Shown here: positions 53,121 to 64,000 of the stretch, in pieces
Numbering within the stretch: position 1 is the first letter of the stretch
How the letters are laid out: each line of letters starts with the position of its first letter
DNA from: a virus
Length of the DNA stretch: 64,000 bases
Virus record (IMG/VR): IMGVR_UViG_3300031951_000126
Span: 2,430 to 66,429 of that record
Strand: one strand, 5' to 3'
The notes under the pieces: model-generated
Database searches by the model: none
What the model was told of the DNA's origin: nothing
Seen by the model: the letters and a program-made list of their open reading frames with translations, nothing else
Translations under genes and position numbers: made by a program

Positions 53121-53660
53121 TCATTTTTTTATCTCTTTTACTTTGTCCTTGTATTGATATATCAATTCTTTTATCATGTCAAGCGGTAGGCTGAGCCTTC
53201 CGTTTCTTTGGGCGTGTAGTTCTTCCAGTCTTCCCTTCCCGATCCTCTTCTCAATCCGGATGCCGTATTCGATCAGGTTACCGTGTTTGTGTTGGTTACA
53301 CTCCACGCACTGGCCGTGTACGTTGTCCTCATGGAATCTCAGGTTTGGGTACGAGCCGACACTGAAATAGTGACCGGCATCGTACTTACCCTGTAGCTTC
53401 TTTCCGCAGGATATACACCCCTTCCCTTGGTCACGAAGCCTAATGAATTGGTTAAACACCTGCTGTAGTTCCTTGCGCCATTGTGATACGGATTTGTTCC
53501 GCTCCTTCATGACCTTCAGGTCTCGTTTAACCTTCCTATCTTTCTGCTTGGAGGAATAGGCGAGCATACATTCTATGTTCTCGCACGTTGCCTGCATTGT
53601 GCTGTACTTGGGAATGAATTCCTGTCTACAGATCCGGCACTTCTTATTCCTCACCTTCAT
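53121..53660 (-). CDS. ninG: NinG/Rap Holliday-junction endonuclease
   Basis: CxxC, FNQFIRLRD, CISCG, DAGHY, RFHEDNVHGQCVECN. Confidence 0.92.
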   Translation of the reverse strand: MKVRNKKCRICRQEFIPKYSTMQATCENIECMLAYSSKQKDRKVKRDLKVMKERNKSVSQWRKELQQVFNQFIRLRDQGKGCISCGKKLQGKYDAGHYFSVGSYPNLRFHEDNVHGQCVECNQHKHGNLIEYGIRIEKRIGKGRLEELHAQRNGRLSLPLDMIKELIYQYKDKVKEIKK

Positions 53661-58877: not shown

Positions 58878-59349
58878 GGCCGGTGAGGATTTTGTGTGAG
58901 ATTGCTGTTGCTGTCATCTTAGCGTAGTCGAGCGCCTGAGTCATTGTGCCGTGAGTCTGACCTTCGGGCAGTTCGATTGACTCGTCTCGGTTGAAGTCGT
59001 AGATGGCCTTCTGATTGTTCAGGATGCCGAATAAGACAGCATCGTAGAGTCCATCGAACACGCGGGTCACATCGAGGTAGATGTTGCCTTCATGAGTCCA
59101 TGCTCCGATGTAATCCCATGCAGTCTCTAGCTGAGTCCCGTTGGTTACGATGAAGTCAAGGACGTGCTGCTTGATGTACATTCCCCTGTCACTGCTCGAC
59201 ATGGAATCCCATGTGTCAGGAAGATTGATGACCTTCTCGTGTCCCTGCATTGATGCGGCATAGCCTGAGTTTGGGCTGTCGCCTGTCGTGATGTTGTAGG
59301 TTGCTCCACCCGTGGTAGCAATCTGCGTTGTAAATTGTGCTAAGTTCAT
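58870..59349 (-). CDS. early protein, possible SAM-lyase-like fold
   Basis: GGATYN...GY...IGAW...YLD...AVLFG...QKAIYD. Confidence 0.55.
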   Translation of the reverse strand: MNLAQFTTQIATTGGATYNITTGDSPNSGYAASMQGHEKVINLPDTWDSMSSSDRGMYIKQHVLDFIVTNGTQLETAWDYIGAWTHEGNIYLDVTRVFDGLYDAVLFGILNNQKAIYDFNRDESIELPEGQTHGTMTQALDYAKMTATAISHKILTGHA

Positions 59350-59354
59350 ATTGA

Positions 59355-59690
59355 TTATTTATTTTTGATTTCATTCATTTCGTTGGCTAGTGCTGCTAGG
59401 TTATCCTCGTCGGATTGGAGAGCAAGTTGTCTGAGCATCTGCTCTTCCATGCCGAAGGCTCTAGTGACTAGCTCCATTGTTTCGCCATCCATGGATTGAA
59501 TATCCTTCCATGCATCAGACTCCGTGTCTTCTAGGTCTGCTGCGATTTGGATGTTTGACAGGTGTGTGTACCCGTCGTCAGCAAAGCCCGTGAATTCGCT
59601 CATGTCTTTGCCTGACTCTAGGTGTAGAAGTAAACGACTCGCGTCATCGATGATGAACAGGAGCCTGCGTTTGATTTGTTCTTGCGTCAT
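59355..59690 (-). CDS. early hypothetical protein
   Basis: First gene after promoter 59713. Confidence 0.65.
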   Translation of the reverse strand: MTQEQIKRRLLFIIDDASRLLLHLESGKDMSEFTGFADDGYTHLSNIQIAADLEDTESDAWKDIQSMDGETMELVTRAFGMEEQMLRQLALQSDEDNLAALANEMNEIKNK

Positions 59691-59756
59691 GTTGCTGTTG
59701 TTTTAAGTGGTACAAAAGTATATTAAAGTTTAAATTACACTTGTTAAGAAATGTTA

Positions 59757-59827
59757 ACTCACAGGTAGGGAGGGTGCGAGCCGTTGCCGCTCCCCTCCCC
59801 TCGTTGCATTACGAGCCTGCTGTGAGC
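59757..59827 (-). ncRNA. GC-rich three-way-junction RNA element
   Basis: GCTCACAG/CTGTGAGT closing CTCGT/ACGAG and GGGAGGG/CCCTCCC helices. Confidence 0.5.
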
Positions 59828-59831
59828 AGAG

Positions 59832-59876
59832 AACATGGCAGGGGATTCGAACCCCCGCTTGCTCCATAGCCATGTT
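59832..59876 (-). ncRNA. minimal tRNA-like element C (acceptor stem + T-arm, no anticodon)
   Basis: AACATGGC-TATGGAGCAAGC-GGGGG-TTCGAAT-CCCCT-GCCATGTT. Confidence 0.7.
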
Positions 59877-60060
59877 AGTTGTGCCAACCGCACCCGCCAT
59901 TGTCATGGCGCACCCAATTCTGAGTCGGTGCTGACCGCAGGTGGTCTTGGTAGTTGTTATGACGCGAGGTACTGCATGAACTCATGAGTACAGCCGCTGT
60001 AATGATTGCGGCGATGTAGGCGAGCCAAAGGAGTGGCTCAATGCGAAGTGTGTGTTTCAT
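59875..60060 (-). CDS. small lipoprotein
   Basis: Hydrophobic signal with lipobox LMSS/C. Confidence 0.65.
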   Translation of the reverse strand: MKHTLRIEPLLWLAYIAAIITAAVLMSSCSTSRHNNYQDHLRSAPTQNWVRHDNGGCGWHN

Positions 60061-60287
60061 TTTAGTTGGTCGTTATAGGTGAATATTCCGGAATTAATGT
60101 ACTGCTTGACCTCGGCCTCGTAAGCGTAATGGATGGTCGTGTCAGGAAGAATGATAGTGAACATCGCTCTGCCTGTGTCCTCGTCCTCCCCTTCGTACAC
60201 GATTGTGCCGTCGTCCTGCATCTCTTTGAAGCGCATTTCAGCGTTGTGCTCGTGCAGCATCATGGCTGCGAAGAATAGTATTTTCAT
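60057..60287 (-). CDS. early hypothetical protein
   Basis: 76-aa ORF with A/C-rich initiation region. Confidence 0.6.
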   Translation of the reverse strand: MKILFFAAMMLHEHNAEMRFKEMQDDGTIVYEGEDEDTGRAMFTIILPDTTIHYAYEAEVKQYINSGIFTYNDQLK

Positions 60288-60298
60288 TTGCGTTGTGT

Positions 60299-60532
60299 TT
60301 ATTGTGCTAGTTCATATTGAGCGCTGTGATTACCCTTTGCTTTGTACACGGGTAGCTTTGTTTTGAAGAATTGTTGGATTTTATACACGCTCATCCATTG
60401 AACGTGTTCGTAATAGCCATGAGTAGTTTTTATGTATAGCGTCCACATGTTTTCATTCGACCAATCGCTTGTGTCTTTTACTGCTTGGAGGTTGCCTTCT
60501 ACAACCTCGAATGGTTTGATTCCGTTGTTCAT
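60299..60532 (-). CDS. early hypothetical protein
   Basis: 77-aa ORF. Confidence 0.6.
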   Translation of the reverse strand: MNNGIKPFEVVEGNLQAVKDTSDWSNENMWTLYIKTTHGYYEHVQWMSVYKIQQFFKTKLPVYKAKGNHSAQYELAQ

Positions 60533-60545
60533 AGCTGTGTTGTTT

Positions 60546-60692
60546 TTAAAATGAATTGAGGTGTTCGATTTCGTCGTCGGCTAGGTAGATGATAAGCCCG
60601 TTGCCTAGCTTAATCCAATTCTCGCCTGTGCTTTCGATTGTGAGTCCTACCAACATATCGTTGGCCTGCTCGTTGAGTTTCTGGGTTGTCAT
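60546..60692 (-). CDS. 48-aa early protein (not in ORF track)
   Basis: MTTQKLNEQANDMLVGLTIESTGENWIKLGNGLIIYLADDEIEHLNSF*. Confidence 0.65.
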   Translation of the reverse strand: MTTQKLNEQANDMLVGLTIESTGENWIKLGNGLIIYLADDEIEHLNSF

Positions 60693-60706
60693 GTTATTGT
60701 GTTATT

Positions 60707-60761
60707 GGTAAAGACCACAGGAGACCTGTGGTTTCGGCTATTGAAGCCTCATCAGTTTACC
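60707..60761 (-). ncRNA. hammerhead ribozyme (type I)
   Basis: GGUAAA-CUGAUGA-GGCU(UCAAU)AGCC-GAAA-CCACAGG(UCU)CCUGUGG-UC-UUUACC; complete catalytic core, GUC site. Confidence 0.95.
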
Positions 60762-61094
60762 TTATAGCTCCTGCATGAGCAAGGCGTAGCCAACCTTTGC
60801 CCTTTCCTGCTCGACCTCGCGTGACTTGTTCCTAGCCCAACTGCGGTCTCTAATCCACCATTGGACTAATTCCCTGTTGTCGTCGCTGTTGCTTGCGCCC
60901 CACGTCATAACGTAAGCCCCGTGGAAAGATACCCGCAGGGTCATTTGCAGTGGCATAGCGTCGTCCTTCAGGAGCATCTCGCTTATCTCGACGCGGTAGG
61001 TTATCTCTAGGCCATTGGCCATGTAGATGGTGTCGTTCTCATACTTTGCGACCTGCATTGCGGTCAGTTGCTTAATGAATTCTTGTGTTGTCAT
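60762..61094 (-). CDS. early hypothetical protein
   Basis: 110-aa ORF; stop codon abuts the ribozyme. Confidence 0.7.
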   Translation of the reverse strand: MTTQEFIKQLTAMQVAKYENDTIYMANGLEITYRVEISEMLLKDDAMPLQMTLRVSFHGAYVMTWGASNSDDNRELVQWWIRDRSWARNKSREVEQERAKVGYALLMQEL

Positions 61095-61098
61095 GTTG

Positions 61099-61353
61099 TT
61101 ATAGATTTTGATATTGATATGAATTGATTAGTGCGGGTAGCCATGCTACCTCTACCCCTATCTCGTTGCCCGATTCGAGAGCCTTGTCGAGATGTTCGCG
61201 GGTAAGTATTAGGTCGGCCAACGAACTGCTTTCAGAATCGCTGTCTTCAAAGATTTCGTAGATAGCAAGCGCTCCCGATGAGAATAGTTCCTTGGCTGAG
61301 TCGGTTACGATGAGCCACACGAAGCCTTCTTCTGTGATTTTGATGTTGTCCAT
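61099..61353 (-). CDS. early protein, paralogue of 61522-61761
   Basis: MDNIKITEEGFVWLIVTD...GNEIGVEV. Confidence 0.75.
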   Translation of the reverse strand: MDNIKITEEGFVWLIVTDSAKELFSSGALAIYEIFEDSDSESSSLADLILTREHLDKALESGNEIGVEVAWLPALINSYQYQNL

Positions 61354-61357
61354 GTTG

Positions 61358-61525
61358 TTATTGGTTTGGGTATGTTCCGTATACTTTGTAGTAGCACTGC
61401 TCGCAGTCTGCGTCAGTGCCTTCGCTCTGCTGTACGCATTCATGCAGCAGGACTTCCTTGTCTAGGGAAGAGCCAACCCACAGCCCCGCTGTGAGTATGG
61501 CTACAAAAATGATCGATAGTCTCAT
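61358..61525 (-). CDS. 55-aa exported/TM Cys-containing protein (not in ORF track)
   Basis: MRLSIIFVAILTAGLWVGSSLDKEVLLHECVQQSEGTDADCEQCYYKVYGTYPNQ*; ATGA-coupled. Confidence 0.65.
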   Translation of the reverse strand: MRLSIIFVAILTAGLWVGSSLDKEVLLHECVQQSEGTDADCEQCYYKVYGTYPNQ

Positions 61526-61761
61526 TTCCCGTGTTGGTATTTGTACGAGTCCACGAGAGATGATAATGGCGCAATCTCGACCCCGATGTCGTTGCCTACT
61601 GCCAATGCATCTTGCAGGTCTCTGAAGTTCTCAATAAGCGCCTCAGTGCCGTCATCGTACAGGCGGTAAACCTGCATAGCGTTGCTGTAGTAAAGTTTCT
61701 CTGCTACGTCCGTGACGATGAGCCACACGAAGCCGTCTGCTGTGATTTTGATGTTGTCCAT
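61522..61761 (-). CDS. early protein, paralogue of 61099-61353
   Basis: MDNIKITADGFVWLIVTD...GNDIGVEI. Confidence 0.75.
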   Translation of the reverse strand: MDNIKITADGFVWLIVTDVAEKLYYSNAMQVYRLYDDGTEALIENFRDLQDALAVGNDIGVEIAPLSSLVDSYKYQHGK

Positions 61762-61773
61762 ATTGCTTAGTTG

Positions 61774-62076
61774 TTATTGTTTCCAAAATAGGTTGCTGTT
61801 CATGTTAACTTCGACCTTGCTGTTGTCGGTACATTCATACCATACTCCATCGTGCTTCTCATACCACTCGCCCTCGTCTTCCCAATCCCATTCGGTGTAG
61901 CAGTACGCGCCATCGTCGTATGCCTTGTCAAGGTCTTCGTAGCCAATCTCGTTGGCGTAATTCAGTGCGTCATGCTCATCGATGAAGTACATGAGGTTCT
62001 CTTCGAACAGGTAGCCCTCGTTCATGCCCTCGTTGGTTGCACTGCATATGCGTGCGAATCTCTCAGTTGTTTCCAT
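61774..62076 (-). CDS. early acidic hypothetical protein
   Basis: ARICSATNEGMNEGY...YCYTEW signature. Confidence 0.7.
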   Translation of the reverse strand: METTERFARICSATNEGMNEGYLFEENLMYFIDEHDALNYANEIGYEDLDKAYDDGAYCYTEWDWEDEGEWYEKHDGVWYECTDNSKVEVNMNSNLFWKQ

Positions 62077-62088
62077 AGTGTTGTTGGT

Positions 62089-62376
62089 TTATTGGGCGCA
62101 TAGCGACCATGATTCATATTGTTTCATTGTACGTCCGTTGATGTCTAGCGTAGAGCAGATGAACTTGGCTAGCTTGATTCGGTCTGACTTGGTGTACAAC
62201 CTGTCAGTGCCGATAGCCAATACAACCTCGCGAGGACTCATGCCTAGCACTCGGTAGCAGAACTTAACGTCCTGCCCTAGGAAGAAGTGCTTGGTTGCCT
62301 TGGGTGTTGAACACACTAGCGTCCAATTGTGTTCGAACCCGTAGTTCGATGATGTGATTTCGATTGTTGCTTTCAT
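62089..62376 (-). CDS. early hypothetical protein
   Basis: FFLGQDVKFCYRVLG motif. Confidence 0.7.
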   Translation of the reverse strand: MKATIEITSSNYGFEHNWTLVCSTPKATKHFFLGQDVKFCYRVLGMSPREVVLAIGTDRLYTKSDRIKLAKFICSTLDINGRTMKQYESWSLCAQ

Positions 62377-62377
62377 A

Positions 62378-62563
62378 TTAGTTGATATAGATTGATGTGT
62401 CAGTCATTACTACGTCGTAGCTGTCAAGGTGCAGTCCTTTGGCTATCTTGAGCCATTCTGCCTTGGATTGCTTGATGTGGATGCCGCAGTCAGCGTTGAT
62501 TGCTACGTAGGCATAGAGTGTGCGCTTGGAGCGCAGTGCTTGGATGAATTCTGCGTGGTTCAT
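62378..62563 (-). CDS. early hypothetical protein
   Basis: Start reassigned to MNHAEFI. Confidence 0.6.
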   Translation of the reverse strand: MNHAEFIQALRSKRTLYAYVAINADCGIHIKQSKAEWLKIAKGLHLDSYDVVMTDTSIYIN

Positions 62564-62567
62564 GTTA

Positions 62568-62777
62568 TCAGTATTTGCGACCCCCGTATGAGAGTCTAGT
62601 GTTTTTGAATTGATAGAGCGAAGAGTACTCCGCGCTGTATACCTCAGGTGCAACTACCTCGTAGCCCTTACGCACCATGGAGGCGATGAAGTTTGCTTCA
62701 TGCCTGTCGTCGTTGATTGTCACCACCATGTCGAATGCGAATTTCGACGGGCGGCGGAAGAAGAATCTCTTTCTCAT
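62568..62777 (-). CDS. early hypothetical protein
   Basis: 69-aa ORF in the tiled operon. Confidence 0.6.
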   Translation of the reverse strand: MRKRFFFRRPSKFAFDMVVTINDDRHEANFIASMVRKGYEVVAPEVYSAEYSSLYQFKNTRLSYGGRKY

Positions 62778-62778
62778 G

Positions 62779-62940
62779 TTACTTGGAATTATGAATTTGC
62801 ACGAATAGGTTCAGGCTCAGGTTCAGGCACAGGATAGTCAGCGGCAGTAAGAACCAAATGCCGGCCATTGGCGCAACTATCGAGGTCAGGAAGAAGAACA
62901 GCACCATTGCGAATGATGCGAGGGATTGGAGTGTTTTCAT
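62779..62940 (-). CDS. 53-aa two-TM protein (not in ORF track)
   Basis: MKTLQSLASFAMVLFFFLTSIVAPMAGIWFLLPLTILCLNLSLNLFVQIHNSK*; exactly fills the gap. Confidence 0.65.
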   Translation of the reverse strand: MKTLQSLASFAMVLFFFLTSIVAPMAGIWFLLPLTILCLNLSLNLFVQIHNSK

Positions 62941-63119
62941 TCTTCTCTATCTTTATTAAGTTTGATACGAACGTCGGGTGTGATTTCATTTCGAAGGAAG
63001 TGGAGGAATGCATCCACATATCGCCAATCAATTGGCTCGTTGTTTCTTGCTTTCTTGAATAGCACCTCTTGGTACTGCTCGATGACCGTAGTCAGTTGTT
63101 CTCTCTTTGCTTTTGTCAT
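62937..63119 (-). CDS. early hypothetical protein
   Basis: Start reassigned to MTKAKREQ, downstream of tRNA-like element B. Confidence 0.65.
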   Translation of the reverse strand: MTKAKREQLTTVIEQYQEVLFKKARNNEPIDWRYVDAFLHFLRNEITPDVRIKLNKDREE

Positions 63120-63143
63120 AGCTGTTGATTTTTTAAGTGTTAG

Positions 63144-63187
63144 AAACAGGAGGGGGAATCGAACCCCCTCTTGCACCATGCCTGTTT
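63144..63187 (-). ncRNA. minimal tRNA-like element B
   Basis: AAACAGG-CATGGTGCAAG-AGGGGG-TTCGATT-CCCCCT-CCTGTTT. Confidence 0.7.
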
Positions 63188-63192
63188 ATCGG

Positions 63193-63600
63193 TTATCCGT
63201 ACACCACCTCCCCTAGGAAGACGGTCTGCAATATCACGTCCGCAGTCTCTGCGTCATCGTTCTCCTCAATCAGGTTGAGAAGGTGGCGAATCGGTGTCTC
63301 AGAAATCCTGTCGTACACGTCCTGTAGCTTGATGTCGTGTCTAGTTGCCTCGTTGTAATCCATCAGGAACAACCTGTGGCCATCGCGCAGAATCTGCATC
63401 AGCACGTCCTCATAGCAGATTGCCATTTCAGGAAATGCAGGAGCACCTTCTTTGCCCTGCTTTAGCTTGCTCTTGGCTTCGTCATAGTGCTTTTGGTTGT
63501 ATCGCAGTTCTAGGTCATAACCTGCGATGTAACCTAGTCCGTTGCACATTGCGCTGTGGAAGTGTTGTTGTGCTTCCTCGTTGGTGAAAATAATCTTCAT
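63193..63600 (-). CDS. conserved early phage protein
   Basis: C-terminal DAETADVILQTVFLGEVVYG signature; start MKIIFT. Confidence 0.75.
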   Translation of the reverse strand: MKIIFTNEEAQQHFHSAMCNGLGYIAGYDLELRYNQKHYDEAKSKLKQGKEGAPAFPEMAICYEDVLMQILRDGHRLFLMDYNEATRHDIKLQDVYDRISETPIRHLLNLIEENDDAETADVILQTVFLGEVVYG

Positions 63601-63624
63601 GGTTGTTGTGTTTTTAAGAGTTAG

Positions 63625-63698
63625 AACAACGGGGGGACTCGAACCCCCTGCGAGACTAGCGACCTCGGTCATCTAGGCTTGCCGCACCATGCGTCGTT
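63625..63698 (-). ncRNA. tRNA-like element A with inserted hairpin
   Basis: AACGACG-CATGGTGC...(CTAG..GACC-GA-GGTC.CTAG)...GCA-GGGGG-TTCGAGT-CCCCC-CGTTGTT. Confidence 0.65.
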
Positions 63699-63714
63699 GC
63701 TATAGTTGTATTGA

Positions 63715-63985
63715 ATTTGCGCCGTTGCGCTGTAGTATTGATACACACAGCTACACGTTGTCACATACGCATAGCTGTGCTACTTGTTTACCGCTGTACT
63801 CATCCGCTCTCCCGTTAGGGGTCACCGCGTATAGTCCCAAGACTCGGCTTTTGTAGTCCCCTGCTATTTGCAGGGCTCTCGTTCGTTTAACCTGTAGCTC
63901 CTAACCTTGCTACTGACAGGTTGCCGAATGTTGTCGGCTATTTGCGGGCGAACTCCCGTCGCTTCGTTGCCTAAGCGCTCACCCT
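63715..63985 (-). ncRNA. long structured non-coding leader (may extend beyond the window)
   Basis: No credible ORF; serial hairpins including a 14-bp helix (63745-63780) with three G-U pairs that form only on the minus strand. Confidence 0.5.
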
Positions 63986-64000
63986 CTTTTGATTGTTGCA

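What the first reader, a model, noticed from the sequence alone, without database searches (positions are those of the whole stretch)
59757..63985. Early operon punctuated by RNA processing modules: hammerhead, tRNA-elbow mimics and structured leader
Seen: most early genes here are tightly tiled (overlapping or up to about 15 nt apart). The larger gaps are filled by structured RNA on the coding strand: a complete hammerhead (60707-60761), three tRNA-like elements (63625-63698, 63144-63187, 59832-59876), a three-way junction (59757-59827) and a hairpin-rich leader (63715-63985). The hammerhead and elements B and C start at or within a few nt of an upstream stop codon. The hammerhead and elements A and B end shortly before an A/C-rich initiation region. 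Known: T7 cuts its early mRNA with RNase III, and phage P4 CI and P1 C4 RNAs are matured by RNase P. Inference: this phage may segment its early polycistron by combining self-cleavage with host tRNA-maturation enzymes (RNase P/Z), giving mRNAs with different protected ends. I know of no description of this combined system.
Basis: partly seen in the sequence, partly recalled or inferred. Interest (0 to 1): 0.9.

Follow-up and report, generated by a model that had tools for sequence, protein, structure and literature searches.

The report
Ribozyme and tRNA-mimic punctuated phage operon
An uncultured freshwater phage separates blocks of small genes in one operon with a self-cutting hammerhead RNA and three stripped-down tRNA look-alikes that are conserved in many related phages, which probably mark where one long message is cut into pieces, although no cutting has been shown.

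Summary
On the minus strand lie a complete type I hammerhead (60707-60761) and three tRNA-like elements (TLEs): A 63625-63701, B 63144-63187, C 59832-59876. They fill the only large gaps in a tightly tiled run of small genes.

All belong to RNA families conserved in related uncultured phages. Covariation is strong:
- Mini-TLEs: 97.4% of cells paired over 50 distinct copies.
- Hammerheads: 100% paired over 12 copies.

Two parts of the observation need correcting:
- The "three-way junction" is really three conserved hairpins that always follow a C-type TLE. Its closing helix is not conserved.
- The window's end is a 127-bp assembly overlap. The leader runs on to a Bacteroidota-type promoter outside the window, about 500 nt before the first ATG.

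TLEs sit just after, or overlapping, a stop codon and 13-37 nt before the next ATG. In four protein families the same slot holds a hammerhead in some phages and a TLE in others.

This supports message punctuation by self-cleavage plus host RNase P/Z, but no cleavage is shown. The RNA data available were contigs only and told nothing about transcript ends.

Hammerheads between phage genes are published. I found no paper on tRNA-like punctuation in phages. Earlier notes of this scan report the same thing on at least seven other genomes.

The parts
63702..64000 (-). 3' part of a roughly 400-nt structured leader. It continues past the window end, across the 127-bp assembly overlap, to a Bacteroidota-type promoter-like site at genome 229-262.
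   Evidence: The promoter box and the first ~20 transcribed nt are conserved in 5 of 5 relatives that reach that far. The middle of the leader comes in two unrelated versions.
63625..63701 (-). TLE-A: a cloverleaf-like pseudo-tRNA. It has a 7-bp acceptor stem, a 3-bp D-like hairpin with a GG loop, a long arm without an anticodon loop, and a 5-bp T stem with loop UUCGAGU. It is followed by C-UAA, with the first ATG 24 nt later.
   Evidence: Consensus fold of 11 distinct copies: 27 pairs, 9 with compensatory changes. Not called by ARAGORN.
63193..63600 (-). First gene of the operon (136 aa from ATG 63600). No family found.
   Evidence: The listed 159-aa ORF starts at an in-frame ATG inside TLE-A. 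That frame relation is not kept at a B-type copy of the relative G001.
63144..63187 (-). TLE-B: an anticodon-less tRNA mimic. It has a 7-bp acceptor stem (AAACAGG/CCUGUUU), a linker C-AUGGU-G-CAAG, and a 6-bp T stem with loop UUCGAUU. It is followed by C-UAA, with the next ATG 24 nt after the discriminator.
   Evidence: R1 score 79.1 bits. Covariation.
60762..61094 (-). 110-aa gene whose TAA directly abuts the hammerhead.
   Evidence: The homologue in L022 is 81% identical and is likewise followed by a hammerhead.
60707..60761 (-). Type I hammerhead ribozyme. Cleavage is predicted after C17, between 60713 and 60712, leaving a 20-nt leader before ATG 60692.
60546..60692 (-). 48-aa gene downstream of the hammerhead. 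Its homologues in relatives are preceded by a hammerhead, by a TLE, or by nothing.
59832..59876 (-). TLE-C: a tRNA mimic (acceptor AACAUGG/CCAUGUU, linker with AUGG, T loop UUCGAAU). Its first two bases are the last two of the TAA of gene 59875-60060.
   Evidence: R1 score 40.9 bits. The acceptor covaries among C-type copies.
59757..59830 (-). Three conserved hairpins that always follow a C-type TLE: CUGC-loop-GCAG; CUCG-UAAUGCAA-CGAG; and GGGAGGG[GAGC-GGCAACG-GCUC]CCCUCCC. Function unknown.
   Evidence: All 19 distinct copies seen follow a C-type TLE (16, 3). Hairpins 1 and 3 covary; hairpin 2 never varies. No Rfam match at E up to 10.
59713..59720 (-). TACTTTTG, the first Bacteroidota-type -7 box (TAnnTTTG) on this strand downstream of the operon's promoter, 22 nt before ATG 59690. 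Probably the start of the next transcription unit.
   Evidence: no TANNTTTG on the minus strand between 59721 and 64000.

Best explanation
One transcript of about 4.7 kb starts at a Bacteroidota-type promoter just outside the window. It runs through a ~400-nt structured leader and 15 small genes.

Four modules punctuate it. The hammerhead cuts itself after C17. It stays on the 3' end of the upstream piece, and the downstream piece gets a 5'-OH and a 20-nt leader.

The three tRNA-like elements present a tRNA 'top half': an acceptor stem stacked on a canonical T arm, plus a GG-containing loop that could make the elbow contact. Host tRNA-maturation enzymes would therefore cut at their edges.
- RNase Z, or an equivalent enzyme, cuts after the conserved discriminator C. 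The downstream cistron then gets a leader of 13-37 nt, much like the one the hammerhead gives.
- RNase P probably cuts at the 5' edge. TLE-A would in this way remove the long leader from the first gene.

What is shown: the structures, their conservation, their positions, and their interchangeability.

What is inferred: that they are cut, by which enzymes, and what this does to translation or stability.
For: 1. Structure under selection.
- Mini-TLE model R1 found 59 copies (50 distinct) in 33 metagenome loci. 97.4% of 623 cells are paired, 11 of 13 pairs have compensatory changes, and 0 of 500 shuffles reach the covariation score.
- The 12 seed copies: 99.4% paired.
- A-type: 9 of 27 pairs compensatory.
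- Hammerhead: 12 distinct copies, 100% of 199 cells paired, 6 of 19 pairs compensatory.

2. tRNA identity of the conserved letters.
- G53-C61 and the loop UUCGAnU are almost invariant.
- Three copies in L036 have A54 with U58 in place of U54 with A58. This keeps the tertiary T-loop pair that I recall from tRNA structure.
- The linker keeps UGG.
- The best Rfam neighbour is mascRNA, itself an RNase P/Z product: 17.2 bits for TLE-C and 27.8 bits for a relative's A-type copy, both below its gathering score.

3. Position, over 67 distinct mini-TLEs.
- An upstream ORF's stop lies within -15 to +7 nt of the acceptor start in 61 of 67.
- By my tally of those rows, the next ORF-opening ATG is 13-37 nt after the discriminator in 46 of the 51 copies that are not C-type.
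- The base after the acceptor is C, followed by U in 55 and by A in 10 of 67.
- Hammerhead cuts would leave leaders of 15-23 nt in 12 of 12 copies (my count's output).

4. Same slot. Of 46 protein clusters with a member directly preceded by a module, 4 have hammerhead-preceded members in some phages and TLE-preceded members in others. One is the 48-aa gene downstream of this window's hammerhead.

5. One unit. There is no -7 box on this strand between the promoter and 59720. TLEs lie only in this region, both in the window and in 4 of 4 whole related records searched.

6. Generality. One 78-kb contig (L036) has 8 TLEs in 6 kb, each at a gene junction.

7. Precedent.
- Hammerheads flank genes in prophage operons and cleave in vitro and in E. 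coli (PMC3088659, passages).
- t-elements direct RNase P/Z cuts that make plant mitochondrial mRNA ends (PMC1920247, passages).
Against: - No transcript end or cleavage has been seen.
- RNA-library contigs of relatives run across TLE-B (X18 record 15, 63093-63243) and across TLE-C with its hairpins (X19 record 17, X20 record 25). These are uncut RNA or carried-over DNA. Either way they are no sign of cutting.
- In 36 of 67 copies the last two bases of the upstream stop codon are the first two of the acceptor stem, and in 45 of 67 there is some overlap. An RNase P cut at the usual place would therefore remove the stop codon of the upstream gene. That is costly unless it is intended, or unless only the 3' side is cut.
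- No CCA is encoded.
- The mini-TLE stack is 7+6 = 13 bp, not the 12 of a tRNA.
- A few copies have C54 with U58 or C58 in the T loop.
- 2 of 12 hammerheads carry C in place of the conserved U4 (L020 and L047).
- The window's hammerhead reaches only 29.1 bits against its best Rfam family, whose gathering score is 56.3. I found no conserved partner for a stem I/loop II tertiary contact.
- The modules are dispensable. 21 of the 46 clusters also have members tiled directly behind another gene with no module.
Confidence: 0.55

Rival explanations
1. The elements act in cis without being cut by tRNA enzymes. They would be compact folds that insulate neighbouring cistrons, block exonucleases, or hold ribosomes (a stand-by or re-initiation site) just upstream of Shine-Dalgarno-less start regions.
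For: The elements keep a fixed distance to the next ATG and touch the upstream stop codon. RNA-library contigs run across TLE-B and TLE-C. Cutting at the 5' edge would destroy stop codons.
Against: A plain GC hairpin would do this job. Instead the exact tRNA T-loop letters and a GG loop are conserved. A self-cleaving ribozyme fills the same slot in relatives, which points to cutting as the shared activity.
Confidence: 0.15
2. The purpose is the released small RNAs. Many tRNA top-half mimics made early in infection would soak up or mislead a host factor that recognises the tRNA elbow or acceptor end, for example a defence nuclease, a tRNA-modifying toxin or a CCA-adding enzyme. Their place between genes would be mere economy.
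For: There are several copies per operon, up to 8 in 6 kb, in what looks like the first transcribed unit. The elbow letters are conserved while the acceptor sequence varies freely. The pattern gave no true copy in one genome for each of 185,579 prokaryote species.
Against: It does not explain why a hammerhead substitutes for a TLE, nor the constant spacing to the next start codon. Release would in any case need the same RNase P/Z cuts. No anticodon loop is present, so anticodon nucleases are not the target.
Confidence: 0.1
3. They are chiefly boundaries of mobile gene cassettes: shared sequence patches at which related phages recombine and shuffle early genes. I recall promoter-stem-loop repeats in T4-type phages being described this way.
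For: Gene content between modules differs among relatives, and the same gene is found with different modules or none. Relatives' contigs lose similarity to the window at the edges of the hammerhead (loose ends at 60725 and at 60757-60764 in three runs).
Against: Recombination patches need sequence identity, not base pairing. Here the stems change by compensatory substitutions while the fold is kept. This role may be a by-product.
Confidence: 0.08
4. They are decaying remnants of phage tRNA genes and have no function.
For: The motif AUGGUGCAAG plus a T arm also occurs in a genuine phage tRNA-Gly(GCC), as the 3' anticodon-stem strand, variable loop and T arm (L019). The family may therefore descend from a tRNA.
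Against: 50 distinct copies keep 97.4% pairing with many compensatory changes and a fixed position relative to genes. Decay would not do this.
Confidence: 0.03

Closest known systems
Hammerhead ribozymes flanking genes in prophage and phage operons (Perreault et al. 2011, PMC3088659; passages read)
   Same: A consensus hammerhead core sits between small phage genes of changing identity. Some phages have several copies (two each in L031 and L043). The published idea is that long phage transcripts are cut into gene-length mRNAs.
   Different: This one is type I, with a short open stem I and no identified tertiary contact. It shares its slots with tRNA-like elements, which the passages I read do not mention.
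t-elements of plant mitochondria (Forner et al. 2007, PMC1920247; passages read)
   Same: These are non-canonical tRNA-like folds carrying the GGTTCRANYCC T-arm motif inside mRNAs precursors. Their edges coincide with mRNA 5' and 3' ends attributed to RNase Z and RNase P. For nad6 and ccmC the cut leaves the 3' end inside the reading frame, which parallels the stop-codon overlap seen here.
   Different: That system is organellar. This is a bacteriophage, its elements are much reduced (44-45 nt, no anticodon arm), they are arrayed in one operon, and no ends have been mapped here.
mascRNA / MALAT1 3' end processing (Rfam RF01684). The mechanism is recalled, not read here.
   Same: It is the best-scoring Rfam neighbour of the TLEs (17.2 bits; 27.8 bits). 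It is a small tRNA-like fold embedded in a longer RNA, cut by RNase P and RNase Z. This resembles what TLE-A would do at the end of the ~400-nt leader.
   Different: It is vertebrate and nuclear. The scores are below the gathering score of 42.5. There is no sequence relationship beyond the T arm.
Theta (HDV-like) ribozymes next to phage tRNAs (Kienbeck et al. 2024, PMC10879173; search listing and abstract only)
   Same: A phage system that links a small ribozyme with tRNA-type RNA processing.
   Different: There the ribozyme matures real suppressor tRNAs. Here the tRNA-like RNAs cannot decode, and the ribozyme is a hammerhead placed at a different junction. The hairpins behind TLE-C gave no ribozyme match in Rfam, and I could not fit an HDV-like topology to them by hand.

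Membership tests
Hammerhead ribozyme (type I) | Catalytic core C3-U4-G5-A6-N7-G8-A9 ... G12-A13-A14, A15.1-U16.1, and H17 at the cleavage site | tested here: met
   Read directly. All core positions are present, with C17 at 60713. The core is kept in 10 of 12 relatives' copies; 2 have C4.
Hammerhead ribozyme (type I) | Three helices around the core, supported by covariation; stem I open, stems II and III capped | tested here: met
   19 pairs, 100% of 199 cells paired, 6 pairs with compensatory changes, and slid controls 25-45% paired.
Hammerhead ribozyme (type I) | Reaches the curated score of an Rfam hammerhead family | tested here: not met
   The only hammerhead family listed is RAGATH-1-hammerhead (RF03152), at 29.1 bits against a gathering score of 56.3, E 0.072. 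That model has a minimal stem II, and here a 4-bp stem II was aligned as an insertion.
Hammerhead ribozyme (type I) | Self-cleavage | not testable with these tools
   Needs in vitro transcription.
tRNA | Cloverleaf with an anticodon arm and a 7-nt anticodon loop, recognised by tRNA finders | tested here: not met
   ARAGORN finds 0 genes in the window. The Rfam tRNA model gives no hit at E up to 10 in 59000-64000. B and C have no anticodon arm. A has a long arm with a 4-nt apical loop.
tRNA-like processing signals (t-elements, mascRNA kind) | Acceptor-like stem stacked on a T arm carrying the GGTTCRANYCC motif, embedded in a longer transcript | tested here: met
   GGTTCGANTCC is matched exactly three times in the window, all at the three TLEs. 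The stems are supported by covariation. The elements lie inside an operon with no -7 box nearby.
tRNA-like processing signals (t-elements, mascRNA kind) | Transcript ends coincide with the element's edges; cleavage by RNase P and RNase Z | not testable with these tools
   Only contigs of relatives were available in RNA libraries, which give no information on ends.
tmRNA tRNA-like domain | G3-U70 alanine identity pair and a tag reading frame | tested here: not met
   The third acceptor pair is A-U, C-G or G-C, and G-U in only 2 of 50 copies. ARAGORN finds no tmRNA. The Rfam tmRNA model matches only 18 nt of the T arm.
HDV-like / theta or other known self-cleaving ribozyme (for the three hairpins at 59757-59830) | Match to a known ribozyme model or its nested double-pseudoknot topology | tested here: not met
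   No ribozyme family matches at E up to 10 over this stretch. My attempt to place P1/P3 by hand failed; this is inference from the sequence.

The most novel reading that the evidence does not exclude
Tailed phages of Bacteroidota-like hosts use a modular RNA 'punctuation code'. Self-cleaving ribozymes and anticodon-less tRNA mimics would be interchangeable cassettes that hand the phage message to the host's tRNA-processing machinery.

Because the acceptor stem usually begins inside the upstream stop codon, the RNase P cut would produce stop-less upstream messages, as at plant mitochondrial nad6 and ccmC. Processing would then act as a built-in switch. It would shut off, or mark for ribosome rescue, the upstream early protein while activating the downstream one, and it would release a burst of tRNA-elbow mimics.
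Probability: 0.15. Interest if true: 0.85.

Novelty: new variant of a known kind. Interest (0 to 1): 0.72.

Why it matters
- **What ribozymes do in phages.** It has long been asked what small self-cleaving ribozymes do there. Finding that a tRNA mimic can replace a hammerhead at the same gene junction says the shared job is RNA cutting. It also makes the question testable with two independent cut mechanisms.
- **A wider reach for tRNA punctuation.** If the tRNA-like elements are cut by RNase P/Z, then 'tRNA punctuation', known from mitochondria, also operates in phages of bacteria. The stop-codon overlap would link processing with translation termination.
- **A search tool and possible parts.** The family (model R1; 50+ distinct copies) is a ready search tool for annotating such operons. 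It may also offer compact natural parts for cutting multi-gene transcripts in Bacteroidota.

Tried and rejected
- **Public RNA data.** One run search found 17 DNA runs holding at least half of the stretch's words and three RNA-labelled runs holding 5-7% of the words. Laying X18, X19, X20 and the DNA run X12 gave only short, low-depth contigs of relatives. There are no molecule starts or ends (its table 6 is empty), so processing could be neither supported nor refuted. Parts without cover mean nothing.
- **Public phage genomes.** blastn of 59600-64000 against 50,697 phage records found no match.
- **Rfam on relatives.** Rfam at E up to 1 on 9 loci of relatives missed their hammerheads, so I found them with my own pattern script. 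Rfam on six further loci and on the ORF-free stretch outside the window gave nothing credible.
- **Full promoter pattern.** TTTG-N17-23-TANNTTTG gave 3 matches against 2.25 expected, none in this region, so it is not useful. The -7 box alone was used instead.
- **GCAACG motif.** It recurs in the loops of the hairpins and the leader but is not enriched window-wide (25 matches against 24.6 expected). 10 of the 25 lie on the minus strand of 59.7-64 kb. I did not follow this up.
- **The elements as coding sequence.** In-frame ATGs inside TLE-A and TLE-B extend the listed ORFs. The frame relation is lost at a B-type copy in G001. The ATG in hairpin 2 opens into the next gene in some relatives but meets a stop here and in G001. 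I rejected this reading.
- **Alternative pairing in C-type copies.** The consensus fold of C-type copies prefers an invariant pairing GGAGCA/UGUUCU over the acceptor stem. Only the acceptor stem covaries, so I keep the tRNA-like fold and note the alternative.
- **Attachment site.** An attP (phage attachment site) reading is rejected. Each element carries its own 5' acceptor strand, there are several per genome, and the stems covary.
- **Proteins.** Pfam on 10 proteins downstream of the operon found only NinG. PHROGs on 10 large proteins found terminase, portal, primase/helicase, a protease and a phosphoesterase. None of the 20 proteins scanned matched an RNA-processing enzyme. The rest of the genome was not scanned.
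- **Literature.** Searches found no paper on tRNA-like punctuation of phage operons. A catalogue of 8,495 candidate structured RNAs from IMG/VR (PMC10690425, passages read) mentions tRNA-like candidates. Its supplementary lists, which I could not see, might include this motif.

Full report
**What the window is.** The window is bases 2430-66429 of a 66,429-base virus record. Its 'direct terminal repeat' is an exact 127-base identity of the two ends. I read this as the overlap of a circular assembly. That reading is inference from the repeat's length.

The record is a tailed phage with terminase, portal and primase/helicase. Its start regions are A/C-rich and lack Shine-Dalgarno sequences, and it carries TAnnTTTG boxes. 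These features point to a Bacteroidota host, a consensus I recall rather than tested. DNA runs that hold the stretch are labelled freshwater, lake water or 'fungus metagenome'.

**The transcription unit.** On the minus strand, the sequence past the window's end continues into genome 128 onward.
- At genome 229-262 lies TTTG-N22-TATCTTTG. This box and the next ~20 bases are conserved in all five relatives whose loci reach that far.
- From the box it is 400 nt to TLE-A and 501 nt to the first ATG.
- No TAnnTTTG occurs on this strand between there and 59721. The next one (59713-59720) sits 22 nt before ATG 59690.
- I therefore read 64000->59750 as one transcription unit with 15 small genes.
- All gaps between genes are 13 nt or less, or overlaps, except the three gaps that hold TLE-B, the hammerhead, and TLE-C with its hairpins.

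**The hammerhead.** The sequence at 60761->60707 has every core nucleotide, the A15.1-U16.1 pair and C17. It folds far better than shuffles (z -4.03).
- Rfam lists only RAGATH-1-hammerhead, at 29.1 bits, below its gathering score of 56.3.
- A pattern script found 12 distinct copies in 10 related loci. Aligned, all 199 cells of 19 pairs are paired, and 6 pairs show compensatory changes.
- Two copies (L020, L047) have C at U4, which may weaken them.
- In the relative G001 the upstream gene's TGA lies inside CUGAUGA.
- The predicted cut leaves the ribozyme on the upstream RNA. The downstream gene gets a leader of 20 nt here and 15-23 nt in all 12 copies (counted's output).

**The tRNA-like elements.** GGTTCGANTCC occurs exactly three times in the window, at the three elements.
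- *How copies were collected.* A pattern spanning the linker and the T arm found 16 stretches in viral contigs, 38 in metagenome contigs, and 1 in one genome for each of 185,579 prokaryote species. That single genome hit has no acceptor or T stem. One viral hit is a true tRNA-Gly(GCC) in a phage tRNA array.
- *Covariance model.* I built model R1 from 12 B-type copies. It found 41 matches in the window plus 19 loci, with some loci overlapping, and 59 matches (50 distinct) in 33 metagenome loci.
- *Covariation.* 97.4% of 623 cells are paired, 11 of 13 pairs have changes on both sides, and 0 of 500 shuffles reach the score. Slid controls are 45-55% paired.
- *Common plan.* A 7-bp acceptor stem of free sequence, then a linker N-AUGG(U/A)-N'-C-AAG whose flanking pair covaries (C-G, U-A). 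Next come a 6-bp T stem and the loop UUCGAnU, then the acceptor 3' strand, a conserved C, and U or A.
- *A-type.* TLE-A is a fuller version with a 7/5 stack, a 3-bp D-like hairpin and a long arm without an anticodon loop. 9 of its 27 pairs are compensatory in 11 copies.
- *Not real tRNAs.* No tRNA finder or Rfam tRNA model accepts any of them.

**Where the elements sit.** These figures cover 67 distinct mini-TLEs.
- An upstream ORF's stop lies within -15 to +7 of the acceptor start in 61.
- In 36 the stop's last two bases are the acceptor's first two. In 45 there is some overlap.
- In 46 of the 51 copies that are not C-type, the next ORF-opening ATG is 13-37 nt after the discriminator. This is my tally of the rows. 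In 8 C-type rows the ATG counted lies in hairpin 2 and is probably not a start.
- In the window and in four whole related records, the elements occur only in this one region.
- A different, 78-kb contig carries eight in 6 kb, each at a junction.

**The slot test.** I clustered all ORFs of the loci and labelled each by what lies within 45 nt upstream.
- Of 46 clusters with a module-preceded member, 4 contain both hammerhead-preceded and TLE-preceded members.
- One of these is the family of the 48-aa gene after this window's hammerhead (3 hammerhead, 2 TLE, 6 tiled).
- 21 clusters also have members tiled directly after another gene.
- The modules are thus interchangeable and optional.

**TLE-C and the 'three-way junction'.** Every one of 19 distinct copies of the conserved hairpin set follows a C-type TLE.
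- Hairpins 1 and 3 covary, and hairpin 2 (CUCG-UAAUGCAA-CGAG) never varies.
- The helix that would close a three-way junction exists only in the window, L018 and L024.
- In this window the composite ends the unit, just before the next -7 box. In other relatives a gene follows directly.
- It matches no Rfam family. Its function is open.

**The leader.** It is hairpin-rich, and several hairpins show compensatory differences between relatives (my reading of the alignment). Its overall fold is only modestly better than shuffles (z -2.2). Its middle part exists in two unrelated versions. What is constant is the promoter-proximal ~20 nt and TLE-A, with the first ATG 24 nt after the discriminator C that follows it.

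**Mechanism.** The best reading is punctuation of one message by self-cleavage plus host RNase P/Z. The closest analogues are plant mitochondrial t-elements and published hammerhead arrays in prophages.

The points against are set out under the best explanation. In short:
- no ends have been seen;
- RNA-library contigs bridge TLE-B and TLE-C;
- the stop-codon overlap makes an RNase P cut costly for the upstream gene;
- no CCA is encoded;
- the mini-TLE stack is 13 bp;
- two hammerheads have core variants;
- the modules are dispensable.

I put this reading at 0.55. That the elements are real, selected RNA structures I hold as near certain.

**Novelty.** Hammerheads between phage genes are known. 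I found no paper on anticodon-less tRNA mimics punctuating phage operons, or on their exchange with ribozymes. Unseen supplements of PMC10690425 may list the motif. Earlier notes of this scan describe the same phenomenon on at least seven other genomes, so this window is one more instance of a recurring, apparently unpublished class. I class it as a new variant of a known kind.

Noticed in passing
Outside the window: genome 128-1430 (locus L062), continuous with window 63702-64000: A stretch of about 1.3-1.4 kb has no ORF of 60 aa or more. It lies between the leftward operon's promoter and the first rightward gene. Long parts of it are conserved in the relative G001. Rfam gives no credible match. 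It could hold an origin, a packaging site or a further RNA.
   Followed up: partly
window 59832-59876 and C-type copies in relatives: C-type TLEs can form an alternative, invariant pairing GGAGCA/UGUUCU that competes with the acceptor stem. It is the minimum-energy fold here and the consensus fold of 16 copies. B-type copies cannot form it. This may be a two-state element.
   Followed up: partly
L036 (three copies) and L010/L015 copies: Three TLEs have A54 with U58 in the T loop in place of U54 with A58, a swap that would keep the tertiary pair. Two others have C54 with U58 or C58.
   Followed up: no
L019:1668-1742: A genuine phage tRNA-Gly(GCC) shares an 11-nt run (CAUGGUGCAAG) plus the T arm with B-type TLEs. 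This hints that the mimics arose from a tRNA by loss of the D arm and the 5' half of the anticodon arm.
   Followed up: no
L009:4120-4194: A relative carries a tRNA-like gene that ARAGORN calls tRNA-Cys with the odd anticodon ACA. It has an A1-U72 pair, no encoded CCA and the trailer ACAAAAC, and it lies just before a gene. It may be a full-length member of the same punctuation set.
   Followed up: no
window 59700-64000, minus strand: 10 of the window's 25 GCAACG hexamers lie here. Several are in hairpin loops of the leader, in TLE-A's acceptor strand, and in hairpins 2 and 3 behind TLE-C.
   Followed up: no
window 53121-53660 (-): A NinG-family protein (Pfam PF05766, E 1.2e-46) lies further down the same strand.
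   Followed up: no
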